From an uncultured Lentisphaerota bacterium (lineage in GTDB: Bacteria; Verrucomicrobiota; Kiritimatiellia; CAIQIC01), in NCBI GenBank assembly GCA_903889245.1, contig CAISWQ010000079.1:876-64875 (forward strand): a stretch of 64,000 nucleotides of DNA. The letters are read 5' to 3'. Positions 25,547 to 32,098 of the stretch are shown piece after piece. Under the pieces are notes generated by a model that saw nothing but the letters and a program-made list of their open reading frames with translations, had not been told where the DNA came from and ran no database searches. A program made the translations under genes and the position numbers. Position 1 is the first letter of the stretch, and each line of letters opens with the position of its first letter.

Positions 25547-28500
25547 ATGAAAAGAATGCTGATCGGTTTGATGATGGCGATGCTGGGCGCGGTGACGGCG
25601 CTGGGTATGGGGCGGCCGGGCGTACCGGGCCAGGGCATCGTGGTCTCGGAGCTGGCGCTGCGCGGGAGCATCGTCGGCGAGAACGTCAGCTTCACGCTCG
25701 ACCTGCAGGCGGACGTGCCCGACCGCAGCCGGCTGACGCTGGTTGAGGGCGATGTGACGTGCCTGACCAGCGCCGTGCCGCGCGGCGTCGAGCTGGTGCG
25801 CGAGGGCAAGGCCTACGTCCTCGTCTTCGAGCGCAACATCAAGGATAAGTTGAGCCTGACGTTCGCCAGTTTGCCGGCGAAGGAAGGCGACTGGCGCGCG
25901 ACGCAGTTCACGCTGCCGAGCGCGACGGTACGCAAGGTCTCGATGCTGTGCGACCGCCCGGACCTGCAGGTGGAATTCCCCGGCGCGCTTGGCGTGGAGC
26001 GCAAGAAGACCGCCGATGGCCGCACGGAAATCGCGGCGAGCCTCGGCGTGACGCGCGGCTTCGCGGTCCGCTGGAAACCCGAGGTGAAGGCGCTGACCGG
26101 CGAGCTGGCGGCGACGTGCGACGCGCACACAATCTATTCCGCGAGCGTCGGCGTCTTGCGGCTCGACAGCCTGCTGAACTATCGCGTGATCCAGGGCGCG
26201 CTGGAGAAACTGGTGATCGCGCTGCCGCCGGAGCTGAATGTGACGCAGGTGCGCGGTGCGGACATCCGCGAGTGGAACGTCGAGGCCGCGAATGCCACCA
26301 ACACCGAGCGCCGGCTCGTCGTCACCTTGAGCCGCCCGCAGGAAAAATCCTATCAGCTCGGCGTCGAAGGCGAGCGCGTGTTGCCGGCGTTCCCGTGCAA
26401 GTTCGATCTGCCGCTGGCGGCGCCGCAAAATGTGCTGCGGACAAGCGGCTTCGTGCTCGTCGGCACCGATAGCGCGGTGAAGATGCTCGTGAACAAGTCG
26501 CTCGGCCTGACGCAGATTGACCAGGCGGCGTTCCCGGCGGTGCAGGCGGCCGACAACCGCGCGCGGCTCGCGCCGGCGCGCGCCGCCTACGCCTACCAGT
26601 ACGCGAACCTGCCGGCGCGCGCCGAACTGACCGCCGACGACATCGTGACGACGCTGCACAGCGAGGAGCAGTTGACGCTCGCGTTGAGCGACAACGATCT
26701 CGCATTCGAAGCCAAGGTGGAACTCGACGTGCGCGATGCGCCGGCGCGCGAGGCCGCGCTCGTGGTGGATCCGGCGTGGAGCGTCGTCAACGTCGCAGGC
26801 GCAAACCTTGCCGATTACGAGGTGCGCGACCAAGCGGGGACGCGGCAGATCAAGCTCTACTTCAAGACGGCATTCACCGGCCACGCGCTGGTGGAGGTGC
26901 GGCTGGAGAAGACGCTGCCCGCGGGCCAGCTCGAATTCGCCGCGCCGCTGTTCCGCGTCGCCGAGGCGCGGACCGAGCGCGGCCACTTGGTGCTGCGCGC
27001 CGAGAAGGGCGTGCGCCTGAAGACCGGTACGGTGACGAACTTGACGGAGGTACACCTGGCCTCGCTGCCGACGCGCGTCGCCGACGCGCAGCAGGCGTTC
27101 CGCTTCAAGGGCGGCGACTGGTCGCTGACCACGCGCATCGAGAAGACTGCGGCGGCGATCTACGCCGAGCTGTTCCAGCTTGTCTCGGCGGGCGAGTCCG
27201 CGCTCTACGGCAGTTGCTCGATCACCTACCACATCAGCGGCGCGCCGGTGCGGCAGCTCCGGGTGCGCGTACCGGCCACGTGCCAGAACGTCGAGTTCAC
27301 CGGCCACGACATCCGGTCGCGCGAGAAGACGAACGACGAGTGGATCGTCAGCTTCCAGGAAAAAATTCTCGGCGACTACACGCTGCTGGTGACCTATGAC
27401 CTGCCGTTCGCATTTGAGGGCGGCAGCGCGGGGCTCGGCGGCGTCGAGACCATCGGCGCGGAGAACGAGGCCGGCTACCTCGTGCTCGCGGGCGCGGCGA
27501 GCCTGCAGTTCCAGACCCTGGAAAAGGCGGACCCGACGCTGATCAAGCTCGACCGCGCGGAGATTCCGCCGGCCTACGCGCTGCTCATCAACGATCCCGT
27601 GCTCGCGGCGTTCAAGTATTCCGGCAGCCCGCACCAGGCCGCGCTCAAGGTGCAGCGCTACCAGACGCAGCCGCTGCTCGGGCAGGTGGCCGATCACATC
27701 TCCTATGCGACGCGCTTGAGCAAGGAGGGCGAGAGCGTGACGGTGGTGACCTATGACGTGAAGAATTCGTCGCAACAGTACTTCGGGCTCAAGCTGCCGG
27801 AGGGCGCGCGGCTGTGGAGCGCCAAGGTGGATGGCGCGACGGTGCAGGCGCTCGCCGTACCGCAGCAGCCGGGCAAGGTGCTCGTGCCGCTGCGCCGTCT
27901 GCGTGACCCGAACCAGCCGCTGCGCCTCGAGGTGCAGTATGCCGAGACCAAGTCCACGATCCGCTGGTGGTGGCCGCGCGGCCTGCGTTGGGAGGCGCCG
28001 GTGACGGACGCGCAGTCGGTCTTCGCCAAGTGGACGCTGACCGCGCCGGAGAAGTACACGCTCGCGCCGGCGGGCGGCAACCTGGCCGCGACCAGCGCGC
28101 CGCTCGCGGGCCTGCTGCGGCTCGGTGCCAACTTCGGCTCGCTCATCGGCGGCCTGCTCAAGCAGGCGTTCTTCTGGGTGGTCTTCATCAAGCTGGTCTG
28201 CATCGCGATCATCATCTTCGCCTACCGCCGCGCGCGTGGCCTCAAAGGCCCGCTGTTCTACGCGCTGACCGGCGTGCTGCTCGGCGCCGCGCTGCTTGTG
28301 GCGCTCCTCGGCGAAGGCCCGCGCGGGCTGGCCAGGGCCTTGGGGCAAACCGACCTGCATACCGTCGCGCCGCAGCAGGAGTCGTTCACGCGGCCGGTCA
28401 GCCCGGCGGGCAGCGCGCTCGAACTCGGCGCGGTCGTGCAACCCGCGTGGCTCGGTCAGGAAGGTTCGCTGACGATCTTTATCGCGGGCACGCTCGCGGG

Positions 28501-31500: not shown

Positions 31501-32098
31501 GGCGCGGCAGGCGTTCGAGTCGGCGCTCTTCTACTCGCAGGGCAAGGCCGACTACAACGAGGACGTGCGCCTGCAATACCGCAACCTCGCCAAGCAGCAG
31601 GCGATCGTCGGCCTCGTCAACCGCCGCGACGAACTCAAGGCGGGCAACAATCTGGCCCTCGACGTACCGCAGGGACAACAGGCCGCTCCCTCCGGGGTGA
31701 ACGCCTACACCGGCGGCACCATTGTGAACCGAGGCGCCCTGACCATCGGCAACGCGAATATCAATCCCAACTGGACTGCGGCCGACGCCGCGCAGGTGCA
31801 GCAGTCGTTGAGCGCGAAGGACAACGTCAGCCTGAACATCGTCGCCGAGAAAATCCTGGACCAGCAGGCGGCGGCGGCGGGGATCGCCGCGGCGCTGCGC
31901 GTGACGATGCCACTGGAGGGCCGCGTGCTCGAGTTCGCGCGCCCGTTGCAGATCACGCCGGGTGCGGAACTGACGGTCAGTTTCAAGACCACCGGCGGCG
32001 GTTTCGTCCGCACGCTGCTCGCGATCGGCGCGTTCCTCGGCGCGTGGATTCTGTTCCGCGTGCTCTGCGGCCTCGCCACCCGCCCGGCCAAGGCTTGA
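25547..32098 (+). CDS. 2183-aa membrane protein with internal tandem duplication: signal peptide, beta-sandwich-like repeats, 4-TM cluster, second repeat module, C-terminal TM anchor
   Basis: MKRMLIGLMMAMLGAVTALGMG is a signal peptide. TM helices sit mid-protein (FFWVVFIKLVCIAIIIFAY, LTIFIAGTLAGLLVLTGV, IVLPWLCLGLWLLLAVLVTAIFA, LLLMLALAGTLFCAGA) and at the C-terminus (LLAIGAFLGAWILFRVLCGL). The second half is homologous to the first (e.g. ...VRWKPEVKALTGE.../...VTWRPRERKTGLE...). The antisense 2223-aa ORF is an Arg-rich run-on. Confidence 0.75.
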   Translation: MKRMLIGLMMAMLGAVTALGMGRPGVPGQGIVVSELALRGSIVGENVSFTLDLQADVPDRSRLTLVEGDVTCLTSAVPRGVELVREGKAYVLVFERNIKDKLSLTFASLPAKEGDWRATQFTLPSATVRKVSMLCDRPDLQVEFPGALGVERKKTADGRTEIAASLGVTRGFAVRWKPEVKALTGELAATCDAHTIYSASVGVLRLDSLLNYRVIQGALEKLVIALPPELNVTQVRGADIREWNVEAANATNTERRLVVTLSRPQEKSYQLGVEGERVLPAFPCKFDLPLAAPQNVLRTSGFVLVGTDSAVKMLVNKSLGLTQIDQAAFPAVQAADNRARLAPARAAYAYQYANLPARAELTADDIVTTLHSEEQLTLALSDNDLAFEAKVELDVRDAPAREAALVVDPAWSVVNVAGANLADYEVRDQAGTRQIKLYFKTAFTGHALVEVRLEKTLPAGQLEFAAPLFRVAEARTERGHLVLRAEKGVRLKTGTVTNLTEVHLASLPTRVADAQQAFRFKGGDWSLTTRIEKTAAAIYAELFQLVSAGESALYGSCSITYHISGAPVRQLRVRVPATCQNVEFTGHDIRSREKTNDEWIVSFQEKILGDYTLLVTYDLPFAFEGGSAGLGGVETIGAENEAGYLVLAGAASLQFQTLEKADPTLIKLDRAEIPPAYALLINDPVLAAFKYSGSPHQAALKVQRYQTQPLLGQVADHISYATRLSKEGESVTVVTYDVKNSSQQYFGLKLPEGARLWSAKVDGATVQALAVPQQPGKVLVPLRRLRDPNQPLRLEVQYAETKSTIRWWWPRGLRWEAPVTDAQSVFAKWTLTAPEKYTLAPAGGNLAATSAPLAGLLRLGANFGSLIGGLLKQAFFWVVFIKLVCIAIIIFAYRRARGLKGPLFYALTGVLLGAALLVALLGEGPRGLARALGQTDLHTVAPQQESFTRPVSPAGSALELGAVVQPAWLGQEGSLTIFIAGTLAGLLVLTGVRGGGRWRPGRAALGLTLLTWGLSSAQIVLPWLCLGLWLLLAVLVTAIFARLAAQLGRRLAAREVARLEQLAAMPPPPPIPEPPATPASGFMRPGLLLMLALAGTLFCAGAKSLAPNVGAPPPQKPTETIMALPVMKTVDLTIEGPSFEKNAERMARVTTILEGRIEKPGKLIVLPPPFVLTAFKLGSRDLAIGSEPAGYTVTVAAEGDYRIELHFLAPVSEQNGVWRLDLPLPAHLRNSAKLSIPAGELDVQSESAVQLKSTDKKTRTEVELVFGPVQTASVTWRPRERKTGLEKAVVFTEVNTLATFETGVINLQNSIRYQIAQGEIQSLTLRIPAEMSVTAVGAPGLSTWRFDPDKRLLEALLEKPVSTDFTLRVVTQIAQENLPYTATLAMLVVENCARQRGAIALAASDAVQLHVDEKDCTGLAVMSVGDFAVPGVQARAAALKRAFRYHQPPATLKAQAARVLPELRVAEEARVDVSDERAVLSSKLQIAVAKSGIFELRLALPVGYDIESLTGPDVSHWDEVKEGARAVVIHFNKQVLGTVTLNVICARQLRGIGASLDVPRLALAEALKHTGTLLISGERGVHFVTAQREGVSEINPSELGVRQQGYVAFRLLRPDWSVQLKAEALAPVVRAEALQIVAIADGLLQGRVRLNYKIENAGVKSFTLQAPQPGLALTVLGRNIARAQEVDKQKGLWQVDLHGKVENEYALDVAYQQPLDVKAQTAKLAPLLAGGIEQQKGWLVVMSSARLKIAPKHVPAGFKEEDARSIGSQFNAGDLSDAILCYRVTKPDVALDLNIVRHGAAEALPATVQSVRLESALSSDDSLVTRAQIQMTVGDMHFLRTTLPEGSAVWCVFVNGRPVPPLREKKDYLIPLDRAAALGATSIEFIYSGSGRSGLLSRTHRFEGPRFDLPLSDITWTFFAPANRNYYGFDGTLNHRETSQYPQVMEFDDRAYIANNTGILTANLKNADAALKKGEEFARKGQQQEARQAFESALFYSQGKADYNEDVRLQYRNLAKQQAIVGLVNRRDELKAGNNLALDVPQGQQAAPSGVNAYTGGTIVNRGALTIGNANINPNWTAADAAQVQQSLSAKDNVSLNIVAEKILDQQAAAAGIAAALRVTMPLEGRVLEFARPLQITPGAELTVSFKTTGGGFVRTLLAIGAFLGAWILFRVLCGLATRPAKA

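What the first reader, a model, noticed from the sequence alone, without database searches (positions are those of the whole stretch)
25547..32098. 2183-aa membrane protein formed by tandem duplication of a roughly 1000-aa module with a central 4-TM cluster
The protein starts with a signal peptide and runs through about 850 aa of beta-rich repeats. It then has four TM helices within about 200 aa, one of them containing a PPPPP(I)PEPP linker. The extracytoplasmic repeat architecture is then repeated, with recognisable homology between halves, and the protein ends in one more TM helix plus a short TPR-like helical region (EEFARKGQQQEARQAFESALFYSQGKADYNEDVRLQYRNLAKQQA).

I cannot match it to a named family. 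The topology of two large exposed repeat domains anchored by five helices is unusual. The gene is flanked on both sides by palindrome arrays.
Basis: seen in the sequence. Interest (0 to 1): 0.5.

Follow-up and report, generated by a model that had tools for sequence, protein, structure and literature searches.

The report
Giant duplicated envelope protein, ECF-sigma operon
This is a real 2183-residue inner-membrane protein with two duplicated five-domain arms facing the periplasm, from an uncharacterised family that almost always sits behind a stress-type sigma factor and its anti-sigma partner, so it is probably part of an unstudied envelope-sensing module.

Summary
The ORF 25547-32098 (+) is real, and the same protein turns up on 11 contigs. 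Its two halves are homologous (aa 101-834 vs 1202-1921, E 3.5e-42). All 120 listed homologues are 2019-2287 aa, and the shorter hits I checked were contig-end fragments, so the fusion is not a frameshift artefact.

The topology is a signal peptide plus seven TM helices, not five. Five helices lie in the centre. A cytoplasmic proline-rich linker follows, then a signal-peptide-like sixth helix, then a C-terminal anchor after a TPR-like bundle.

In 50 of 51 relatives with enough upstream sequence, the gene follows an ECF sigma and an anti-sigma fused to a periplasmic VWA domain. A conserved ECF-type promoter precedes the operon. The mreBCD neighbourhood is not conserved, and the flanking palindromes occur across the whole window.

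The most likely role is a periplasmic partner of the VWA anti-sigma. This is inferred, not shown. It is a new family built from a known fold.

The parts
18004..18030 (+). ECF-type promoter of the operon (TGAAG-N17-CGTAT), 34 nt upstream of the sigma gene
   Evidence: This is the only match to TGAAR-N16-18-CGTMT in the 64-kb window. The same motif lies upstream of the orthologous sigma gene in 23/51 loci (strict pattern) or 38/51 (relaxed pattern), against a background of 0.02 per 260 nt.
18064..18612 (+). ECF sigma factor gene (182 aa; Sigma70_r2 + r4_2)
   Evidence: Gene call and Pfam annotation on the identical contig L001; translation. Found upstream of the giant gene in 49/51 relatives.
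18624..22742 (+). Anti-sigma factor gene (1372 aa). Cytoplasmic zf-HC2 domain, one TM helix (aa 84-106), then a periplasmic low-complexity/PATR region, vWF_A, a VWA domain with an intact MIDAS motif (DTSGS, aa 1032), and YfbK_C.
   Evidence: Pfam, sequence inspection. The VWA/YfbK_C part is found upstream on the same strand in 50/51 relatives.
23331..25227 (+). Lineage-specific insertion between the anti-sigma and giant genes: a cystatin-like gene (23331-23699), DUF6794 (23764-24588) and PDDEXK_3 (24829-25227), plus REP-like palindromes
   Evidence: GC drops to 0.57 at 24-26 kb. In most relatives the anti-sigma gene ends 0-400 nt before the giant gene.
25547..32098 (+). Giant gene, 2183 aa plus stop
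25547..25612 (+). N-terminal signal peptide (aa 1-22)
   Evidence: Hydropathy and an AF2 helix at aa 2-20. Orthologues carry typical AxA cleavage motifs.
25634..28096 (+). Periplasmic module 1 (aa 30-850): five beta-sandwich domains, A 30-182, B 186-340, C 343-505, D 512-672, E 683-850
28112..28738 (+). Central membrane cluster (aa 856-1064). Amphipathic helix, TM1 875-897, TM2 902-921, periplasmic helix plus FTRPV beta-hairpin (944-966), TM3 975-994, TM4 999-1015, and TM5 with a cytoplasmic extension (1021-1064).
   Evidence: AF2 secondary structure, conserved pattern in homologues, charge distribution.
28739..28798 (+). Variable cytoplasmic proline-rich or acidic linker (aa 1065-1084, includes PPPPPIPEPP)
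   Evidence: pLDDT below 50. Gap-rich and variable in length across homologues.
28799..28852 (+). TM6 (aa 1085-1102), an internal signal-peptide-like helix ending in AGA|K
   Evidence: An [AS]xA motif sits at its end in 73/118 homologues, against 22/77 for TM2 and 41/120 for TM4.
28919..31366 (+). Periplasmic module 2 (aa 1125-1940): five beta-sandwich domains A2-E2, paralogous to module 1
31391..31645 (+). TPR-like three-helix region (aa 1949-2033), containing the conserved NEDARIQYRN motif
31667..31759 (+). Variable disordered insert (aa 2041-2071); a weak sub-threshold PATR-like match
   Evidence: pLDDT below 50. 56% gaps in homologues. PATR E 0.11, below the curated cut-off.
31778..32077 (+). 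C-terminal helices (aa 2078-2110), FARPL beta-hairpin (2125-2150) and TM7 anchor (2151-2177)
   Evidence: AF2. Weak profile similarity of this hairpin plus TM7 to the FTRPV hairpin plus TM3 (hhalign E 0.0015, probability 17%).

Best explanation
**Shown**
- The gene encodes one polytopic inner-membrane protein, conserved at about 2.1-2.3 kaa across Kiritimatiellia and Lentisphaeria/Victivallales.
- It arose by tandem duplication of a unit made of a signal or anchor helix, five beta-sandwich domains, a helical region, a beta-hairpin and a TM anchor.
- Each domain has the fold of the N-terminal domain of M1 aminopeptidases and of OST1/ribophorin I. This is a binding or scaffolding fold, and no catalytic motif is present.
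- The charge distribution places both roughly 820-aa modules in the periplasm.
- The gene is the last member of a conserved operon: ECF sigma, then an anti-sigma with a periplasmic VWA(MIDAS)/YfbK_C domain, then the giant gene. A conserved ECF-type promoter precedes the sigma gene.

**Inferred**
- The giant protein is the periplasmic partner of the anti-sigma factor.
- Its beta-sandwich arms act as the sensing or ligand-binding platform. Their state is read by the MIDAS-containing VWA domain of the anti-sigma.
- When that contact changes, through envelope damage or ligand binding, the sigma factor is released and drives the operon's own promoter.
- This resembles third components of other ECF operons, such as FecA with FecR or YhdK with YhdL (from my own knowledge of those systems).
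- TM6 looks like an internal signal peptide, so signal peptidase may cut the protein into two paralogous membrane-anchored subunits.
For: **One gene, conserved fusion**
-.

**Duplication**
-.

**Fold**
- AF2 pLDDT 86.8 and 85.3.
- Foldseek matches OST1 over its whole length, E 5e-8.

**Topology**
- Short loops TM1-2 and TM3-4 and the C-terminal tail are net positive (+1.25, +2.55, +1.8).
- The TM4-5 loop and the post-TM6 segment are not.

**Operon**
- The anti-sigma-VWA gene is upstream on the same strand in 50/51 loci, and the sigma gene in 49/51. The anti-sigma gene usually ends 0-400 nt before the giant gene.
- Downstream genes differ between relatives.

**Promoter**
-.

**Anti-sigma**
- HxxxCxxC motif, one TM helix and an intact DxSxS MIDAS motif.

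**Internal signal peptide**
-.
Against: - No direct evidence exists for contact between the giant protein and the VWA domain.
- Co-transcription is equally expected if the giant protein is simply the sigma factor's main target.
- In this window three unrelated genes and REP elements separate it from the anti-sigma gene, and no ECF-type promoter lies directly upstream of it.
- A Verrucomicrobiota sister clade of the family is not consistently linked to a VWA anti-sigma.
- The AxA enrichment at TM6 is modest, and the pattern used is permissive.
- pTM is 0.44, so the relative arrangement of domains is uncertain.
Confidence: 0.4

Rival explanations
1. The giant protein is the output of the sigma factor, not a signalling partner. 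It would be a stress-induced structural or scaffolding protein of the envelope, for example a periplasm-spanning strut or tether. The VWA anti-sigma would sense something else.
For: - It is the last gene of an apparently autoregulated operon.
- It carries ten tandem beta-sandwich domains with very long strands, resembling the legs of integrins and alpha-2-macroglobulin in Foldseek.
- No catalytic motif is present.
- In this genome it tolerates physical separation from the anti-sigma gene.
Against: - Near-universal tight synteny with the anti-sigma gene (50/51 loci) is more than is usual for a mere regulon member.
- Third genes in ECF operons are often co-regulators (own knowledge).
- Nothing shows that the modules reach the outer membrane.
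Confidence: 0.3
2. The protein is part of a transport or secretion apparatus, such as a pseudopilus-associated platform or a lipid or polysaccharide conduit, with the seven-helix membrane part acting as the functional core.
For: - The Verrucomicrobiota sister clade carries a pseudopilin-like, H-X9-DG-like insert in the TM2-TM3 periplasmic loop. Source databases name those proteins after PulG, GspH or ComGC.
- TM4 (ALGLTLL..G.AQ) and the periplasmic hairpin are conserved.
Against: - The pseudopilin and DUF1559 matches are below threshold (E 0.004-0.02) and absent from the window protein.
- TM1 and TM2 are the least conserved part of the protein.
- No ATPase, secretin or transporter gene is conserved nearby.
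Confidence: 0.08
3. It is a BatD-like component of a Bat/aerotolerance-type VWA complex.
For: It pairs with a VWA protein, has a beta-rich ectodomain with membrane anchors, and carries a TPR-like element.
Against: - No BatD or other Pfam/NCBIfam match, even at E up to 1-10.
- No MoxR ATPase, DUF58 or BatA/B/C genes in any examined locus.
- Here the VWA domain is fused to an anti-sigma factor.
Confidence: 0.03
4. It is really two adjacent paralogous genes joined by a frameshift or assembly error.
For: The second half starts with its own signal-peptide-like helix, preceded by a Met (aa 1083).
Against: - The frame is open throughout.
- The identical 2183-aa protein is on 11 contigs.
- All 120 listed homologues (37-81% identity) are full length.
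- The best 150 cluster representatives are almost all two-module proteins, and the short ones I checked are truncated by contig ends.
Confidence: 0.01

Closest known systems
OST1 / ribophorin I (subunit of the eukaryotic oligosaccharyltransferase)
   Different: No sequence similarity and no Ribophorin_I Pfam hit. OST1 has two domains and one helix, whereas this protein has ten domains and seven helices. No STT3/PglB-type partner is nearby. The organism is a bacterium, and the gene sits in a sigma/anti-sigma operon.
N-terminal beta domain of M1 aminopeptidases (LTA4 hydrolase, tricorn factor F3, ERAP1, aminopeptidase N) and TAF2
   Different: No thermolysin-like catalytic domain and no HExxH or GxMEN motif. 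No Peptidase_M1_N Pfam hit. The domain is repeated ten times and membrane-anchored.
Three-gene ECF modules in which the third gene product works with the anti-sigma (FecI-FecR-FecA cell-surface signalling; B. subtilis SigM-YhdL-YhdK). Comparison from my own knowledge of these systems.
   Same: Gene order sigma, single-pass anti-sigma, envelope protein. The synteny is conserved and an ECF-type promoter precedes the sigma gene.
   Different: The third component is a giant inner-membrane protein, not a TonB-dependent outer-membrane transducer or a small membrane protein. The anti-sigma sensor domain is VWA/YfbK_C. No interaction has been shown.
ECF289-type anti-sigma factors (Casas-Pastor et al. 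2021, PMC7826278)
   Same: The paper describes ECF289 as having an anti-sigma with DUF3520 (= YfbK_C) fused to a von Willebrand domain. The anti-sigma here has exactly these domains.
   Different: Group membership of the sigma factor itself was not tested. The passages of the paper that I retrieved do not mention a giant third gene.
Inter-alpha-trypsin inhibitor heavy chains and other VIT-VWA proteins
   Different: There the two domains are in one chain. Here they are on two proteins. No VIT Pfam hit. The scores are lower than for M1 or OST1.
BatD of the Bacteroides aerotolerance (Bat) operon
   Same: A beta-rich, membrane-anchored protein encoded next to VWA proteins and TPR elements.
   Different: No sequence match, and no MoxR, DUF58 or BatABC genes in the neighbourhood.

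Membership tests
Bat/aerotolerance system (BatD-like) | Sequence match to the BatD family model | tested here: not met
   No Pfam or NCBIfam family other than two chance-level hits at E up to 1 for the whole protein. No relevant hit at E up to 10 for the ten separate domains.
Bat/aerotolerance system (BatD-like) | Operon with a MoxR-type ATPase, a DUF58 protein, BatA/BatB VWA membrane proteins and the BatC TPR protein | tested here: not met
   Neighbours in the window and in four divergent loci contain none of these. The only VWA protein is the anti-sigma fusion.
M1 aminopeptidase (N-terminal domain) | Beta-sandwich fold of the LTA4H N-terminal domain | tested here: met
M1 aminopeptidase (N-terminal domain) | Adjacent catalytic domain with HExxH-X18-E and GxMEN motifs | tested here: not met
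   No HExxH, HxxEH or GxMEN anywhere in the 2183 aa. No Peptidase_M1 Pfam hit.
OST1 / ribophorin I | Lumenal (non-cytoplasmic) beta-sandwich domains followed by a TM helix | tested here: met
OST1 / ribophorin I | Sequence membership (Ribophorin_I model) and association with an STT3-type oligosaccharyltransferase | tested here: not met
   No Pfam hit. No glycosyltransferase of that type in any examined neighbourhood.
ECF sigma / anti-sigma three-component envelope signalling module | ECF sigma (regions 2 and 4) followed by a single-pass anti-sigma with a cytoplasmic zinc-binding anti-sigma domain | tested here: met
   Sigma70_r2/r4_2. zf-HC2 with HxxxCxxC at aa 29-36 and one TM helix at aa 84-106.
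ECF sigma / anti-sigma three-component envelope signalling module | Conserved synteny of the third gene with the sigma/anti-sigma pair | tested here: met
   50/51 loci for the anti-sigma and 49/51 for the sigma, same strand. Confirmed by gene calls in L001 and L003-L005.
ECF sigma / anti-sigma three-component envelope signalling module | Autoregulatory ECF-type promoter upstream of the operon | tested here: inconclusive
   A conserved GAAG-N16-18-CGT[AC]T motif occurs in 23-38 of 51 upstream regions, against 0.02 expected, and only once in the window. Its function as a promoter is inferred, not shown.
ECF sigma / anti-sigma three-component envelope signalling module | Physical and functional coupling of the third component to the anti-sigma periplasmic domain | not testable with these tools
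   Needs co-folding of two chains or experiments.
Classical cell-surface signalling (FecIRA type) | Third component is a TonB-dependent outer-membrane transducer with an N-terminal signalling (STN) domain | tested here: not met
   No TonB_dep_Rec, Plug or STN hit in the window protein. The protein has seven predicted inner-membrane helices.
ECF289 group | Anti-sigma containing DUF3520 (YfbK_C) fused to a VWA domain | tested here: met
   vWF_A + VWA + YfbK_C in the anti-sigma. Group definition from PMC7826278.
ECF289 group | Sigma factor falls in the ECF289 clade or matches its HMM | not tested
   No ECF group models are available in these tools.
TPR repeat proteins | Sequence match to TPR models; helix-turn-helix repeat structure | tested here: inconclusive
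Type IV pilin-like / DUF1559 (H-X9-DG) proteins | Prepilin-type N-terminal helix and H-X9-DG domain | tested here: not met
   No hit in the window protein's central region. Only the Verrucomicrobiota sister clade (P0230) shows sub-threshold matches: ComGC E 0.0055, GspG E 0.024, DUF1559 E 0.0036.
DUF4139 (MuiA-like) | Profile-level homology | tested here: not met
   hhalign of the module profile against five DUF4139 neighbours of a sister-clade gene gives E 0.34, probability 0.2%.

The most novel reading that the evidence does not exclude
The operon encodes a previously unrecognised envelope device of Kiritimatiellota and Lentisphaerota. The giant precursor would be cut at its internal signal peptide into two paralogous subunits. 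Their five-domain arms would span the periplasm as a tether, ruler or platform. The integrity or ligand occupancy of these arms would be monitored directly by a MIDAS-VWA anti-sigma factor. That would be a new kind of trans-envelope sensing machine with no counterpart in model bacteria.
Probability: 0.15. Interest if true: 0.75.

Novelty: new variant of a known kind. Interest (0 to 1): 0.5.

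Why it matters
**Scale of the family**
- The family is very large: 8080 clusters at 50% identity, and relatives in at least 447 species-level genomes.
- It has no Pfam or NCBIfam model and no solved relative, and I found no literature on it.

**Why it would matter if true**
- These bacteria are important degraders of sulfated polysaccharides, and their envelope biology is almost unstudied.
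- The tight link to an ECF sigma and a VWA-containing anti-sigma gives a concrete, testable handle on two open questions. One is what VWA/YfbK_C-type anti-sigma factors sense. The other is what this conserved giant membrane protein does.
- It is also a clear case of a whole secreted, anchored protein being duplicated and fused in frame, keeping an internal signal peptide.

Tried and rejected
**Sequence and profile searches that found nothing useful**
- Pfam, NCBIfam and PADLOC scans of the whole protein, and a Pfam scan of the ten separate domains, gave nothing usable.
- PDB sequence searches with the protein and with a 22-sequence module profile gave only chance hits.

**Unavailable or limited resources**
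- The Foldseek AlphaFold-database library was not available.
- The representative search lists only the best 150 of 8080 hits, so the distant tail, where single-module or annotated relatives might lie, could not be inspected.

**Leads checked and dropped**
- Apparent single-module proteins of 1.0-1.1 kaa (P0210, P0254) are truncated at contig ends. In L088 the frame stays open to the contig edge and shows the proline linker and TM6.
- Homology of the module to DUF4139, prompted by five tandem DUF4139 genes next to a sister-clade member, was rejected (hhalign E 0.34).
- A functional link to mreBCD-pbp2-rodA was rejected, because that neighbourhood is not conserved.
- A specific link to the palindromes was rejected, because they occur across the whole window.
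- I looked for a second copy of the ECF-type promoter in front of the giant gene and found none.
- Literature searches for Kiritimatiellota with ECF or VWA returned nothing relevant.

Full report
**1. The observation**

The window has about 67% GC. An ORF runs from 25547 to 32098 on the + strand and encodes 2183 aa. An even longer antisense ORF (25466-32137, 2223 aa) translates into arginine-, alanine- and leucine-rich nonsense. That is the usual high-GC artefact, so the + strand is the coding strand.

A blastp comparison of the first 880 residues with the last 1100 aligns aa 101-834 with aa 1202-1921. Identity is 23.7% and E is 3.5e-42, so the internal duplication is real. Hydropathy shows an N-terminal signal-like segment, a central hydrophobic cluster, a further hydrophobic segment after the proline stretch, and a C-terminal helix.

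**2. One gene, not two**

The identical 2183-aa protein is recorded on 11 contigs from several assemblies. A word-indexed search of 5.8 billion proteins returned 266 hits. The best 120 are all 2019-2287 aa long, share 37-81% identity, and are nearly all unnamed or called hypothetical. The names point to Kiritimatiellae, Lentisphaerae and 'Verrucomicrobia' MAGs.

A scan of one genome per species found at least 447 genomes with a relative. These include the cultured Pontiella sulfatireligans F21. In nearly every locus with enough sequence, the C-terminal half follows the N-terminal half at +3.1 to +3.6 kb; two loci have it at +4.1 and +4.6 kb.

A profile search of 1.84 billion cluster representatives found 8080 hits at E <= 1e-3 and 2726 at E <= 1e-30. 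The best 150 are almost all two-module proteins. Two apparent single-module hits were checked and both are truncated by contig ends. In one of them the frame is open to the contig edge and shows the proline linker and the sixth helix. A frameshift or two-gene explanation is therefore refuted.

**3. Anatomy**

Conservation is high through both ectodomains and low in the first two central helices, the proline linker and a C-terminal insert.

AlphaFold2 with 66-sequence alignments gave confident models: aa 1-1110 at mean pLDDT 86.8, and aa 1076-2183 at 85.3. pTM is 0.44 for both, so the individual domains are reliable but their mutual arrangement is not.

Each half contains five all-beta domains of about 155-165 aa, labelled A-E and A2-E2. 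Domain-wise blastp matches are collinear (B/B2 1.7e-11, C/C2 1e-8, D/D2 3.9e-18, E/E2 2.6e-5). They also link B, C and D to one another (B/C2 2.5e-7), so B, C and D are themselves an older repeat.

The centre holds these elements in order:
- an amphipathic helix, aa 856-873
- TM1 875-897 and TM2 902-921
- a periplasmic helix and a conserved FTRxV beta-hairpin, 944-966
- TM3 975-994 and TM4 999-1015
- TM5 with a cytoplasmic extension, 1021-1064
- a disordered proline-rich or acidic linker of variable length
- TM6 1085-1102

After module 2 come these elements:
- three long helices, aa 1949-2033
- a variable disordered insert
- two more helices
- a FARPL beta-hairpin
- TM7 2151-2177

The hairpin-plus-helix element at the end of each unit is weakly similar between the halves (hhalign E 0.0015, probability 17%).

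Across 121 sequences, the short loops TM1-2 and TM3-4 and the C-terminal tail are net positive (+1.25, +2.55, +1.8). The TM4-5 loop and the segment after TM6 are not. This fits seven helices with both modules in the periplasm.

TM6 looks like a signal peptide. It has a positive residue, a hydrophobic core and an AGA|K ending. An [AS]xA motif lies at its end in 73/118 homologues, against 22/77 for TM2 and 41/120 for TM4. Cleavage there is possible but not shown.

**4. Fold**

- TAF2
- M61 peptidases
- at lower scores, VIT/VWA proteins such as ITIH1

Foldseek aligned module 1 to integrin alpha legs, alpha-2-macroglobulins and nearly the full length of OST1 (E 5e-8). The TM-scores are low, as expected for strings of beta-sandwiches.

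**5. Context**

In the window the upstream genes are:
- an ECF sigma factor (18064-18612)
- a 1372-aa anti-sigma factor (18624-22742) with a zf-HC2 domain, one TM helix, a low-complexity/PATR region, vWF_A, a VWA domain with an intact DTSGS MIDAS motif, and YfbK_C
- three unrelated genes (cystatin-like, DUF6794, PDDEXK_3) in a stretch of lower GC

Downstream lie an NAGPA-family gene and mreB-mreC-mreD-pbp2-rodA.

In divergent relatives (45-51% identity) the downstream genes are all different. The upstream pair is always there, directly abutting the giant gene.

I ran tblastn of the window's sigma, anti-sigma and giant halves against 85 loci. Of the 51 loci with at least 4.5 kb upstream, 50 carry the VWA/YfbK_C anti-sigma and 49 carry the sigma on the same strand.

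Upstream of the sigma genes there is a conserved motif: a T-rich stretch, GAAG or AAAG, 16-18 nt, then CGT[AC]T. It is present in 23 (strict) to 38 (relaxed) of 51 regions, against 0.02 expected. Its only copy in the window is at 18004-18030. This looks like an autoregulated ECF promoter.

Casas-Pastor et al. describe group ECF289 as having an anti-sigma with DUF3520 fused to a von Willebrand domain (PMC7826278). The passages I retrieved do not mention a giant third gene.

**6. Interpretation**

What is shown:
- a conserved, fused, seven-helix inner-membrane protein
- two periplasmic five-domain arms with an M1-N/OST1-like fold
- position as the last gene of a conserved sigma/anti-sigma-VWA operon

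What is inferred: the protein works with the anti-sigma factor. In the model I favour (about 0.4), the arms are the sensing platform and the MIDAS-VWA domain reads their state to control sigma release. This parallels third components of other ECF operons and echoes the VIT-VWA pairing seen in ITIH proteins.

The main rival (about 0.3) is that the giant protein is simply the sigma factor's structural output. A transport or secretion role, a Bat-like role and a two-gene artefact are much less likely. The evidence for and against each is given in the rival explanations.

**7. Sister clade**

A search with a 2607-aa relative found a Verrucomicrobiota (Limisphaerales-type) clade of 2.25-2.8 kaa. 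Source databases name its members after PulG, GspH, ComGC or 'H-X9-DG'. The cause is an insert in the TM2-TM3 periplasmic loop that resembles a pseudopilin helix and the H-X9-DG end of DUF1559. These matches are below threshold, and the window protein lacks the insert.

That clade is not consistently linked to a VWA anti-sigma. One locus has five tandem DUF4139 genes and a divergent ECF sigma, and another has neither. DUF4139 shows no profile similarity to the module.

**8. Verdict**

The helix count, the helix order and the palindrome link needed correction. This is a new, very widespread protein family built from a known fold, in a conserved ECF sigma/anti-sigma operon. Its function is unproven. 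Interest is moderate (0.5).

Noticed in passing
window, e.g. 5490, 7533/7564, 11022/11053, 13287/13318, 17038/17069, 23215/23247, 24671/24703/24734, 32102/32132, 33021/33053, 40989, 44555/44586, 50054/50085/50148: The 15-nt palindrome TTCCAAGSSTTGGAA occurs at about 24 intergenic sites against 0 expected. It is usually in pairs or triplets spaced about 31 nt apart. This is a genome-wide REP-like element of this organism.
   Followed up: partly
window 25225-25300 and 25378-25455: Two copies of a ~75-nt element with GAATTTGGAA...TTCCAAATTC arms and an internal stem (GAAAGCAGGAAGGCAGG / CCTCCTTTCCTGCTTTC). They lie in the AT-richer gap just upstream of the giant gene. They differ from the main palindrome family.
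   Followed up: no
window 23021-23047 / 23069-23095: A perfect 27-nt inverted repeat (TGTGGGCGGGAGCTCCAGCTCCCGCGA) with a 21-nt loop lies downstream of the anti-sigma gene. It may be a terminator or a mobile-element end at the border of the inserted genes.
   Followed up: no
window 23331-25227: Three small genes (cystatin-like, DUF6794, PDDEXK_3) interrupt the otherwise contiguous anti-sigma/giant gene pair. GC falls to 0.57 here. The closest relatives (L006, L009) also have a 1.5-1.9 kb gap, while most others have 0-400 nt. This is likely a lineage-specific insertion.
   Followed up: partly
window 18624-22742 (anti-sigma aa ~110-930): The anti-sigma factor here is 1372 aa, against 816-898 aa in divergent relatives. 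The extra length is an ~800-aa low-complexity periplasmic spacer that includes a PATR (autotransporter passenger-type) repeat.
   Followed up: no
window 18004-18030; loci L003-L084, upstream of the sigma genes: A conserved ECF-type promoter motif (T-rich, GAAG/AAAG, N16-18, CGT[AC]T) lies upstream of the operon across two phyla. It could be used to define the regulon in complete genomes.
   Followed up: partly
P0230 (L086:1178-9001) and about 120 relatives: A Verrucomicrobiota sister clade of the giant protein (2.25-2.8 kaa) carries a pseudopilin-like, H-X9-DG-like domain inserted in the TM2-TM3 periplasmic loop, plus a ~230-aa N-terminal extra domain. Source databases name these proteins after T2SS pseudopilins on that basis.
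   Followed up: partly
L089:948-7736: Five tandem paralogous DUF4139 genes (about 450 aa each, four of them 80-84% identical) sit directly upstream of a sister-clade giant gene, with a divergent ECF sigma gene. They show no profile similarity to the giant module.
   Followed up: partly
window 32164-38688: An NAGPA-family (phosphodiester glycosidase) gene is followed by a complete mreB-mreC-mreD-pbp2-rodA elongasome cluster directly downstream. The adjacency to the giant gene is not conserved in relatives.
   Followed up: yes
window 25466-32137 (- strand): A 2223-aa antisense ORF fully overlaps the giant gene and is longer than it. Its translation is R/A/L/G-rich and it is a high-GC artefact.
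   Followed up: yes
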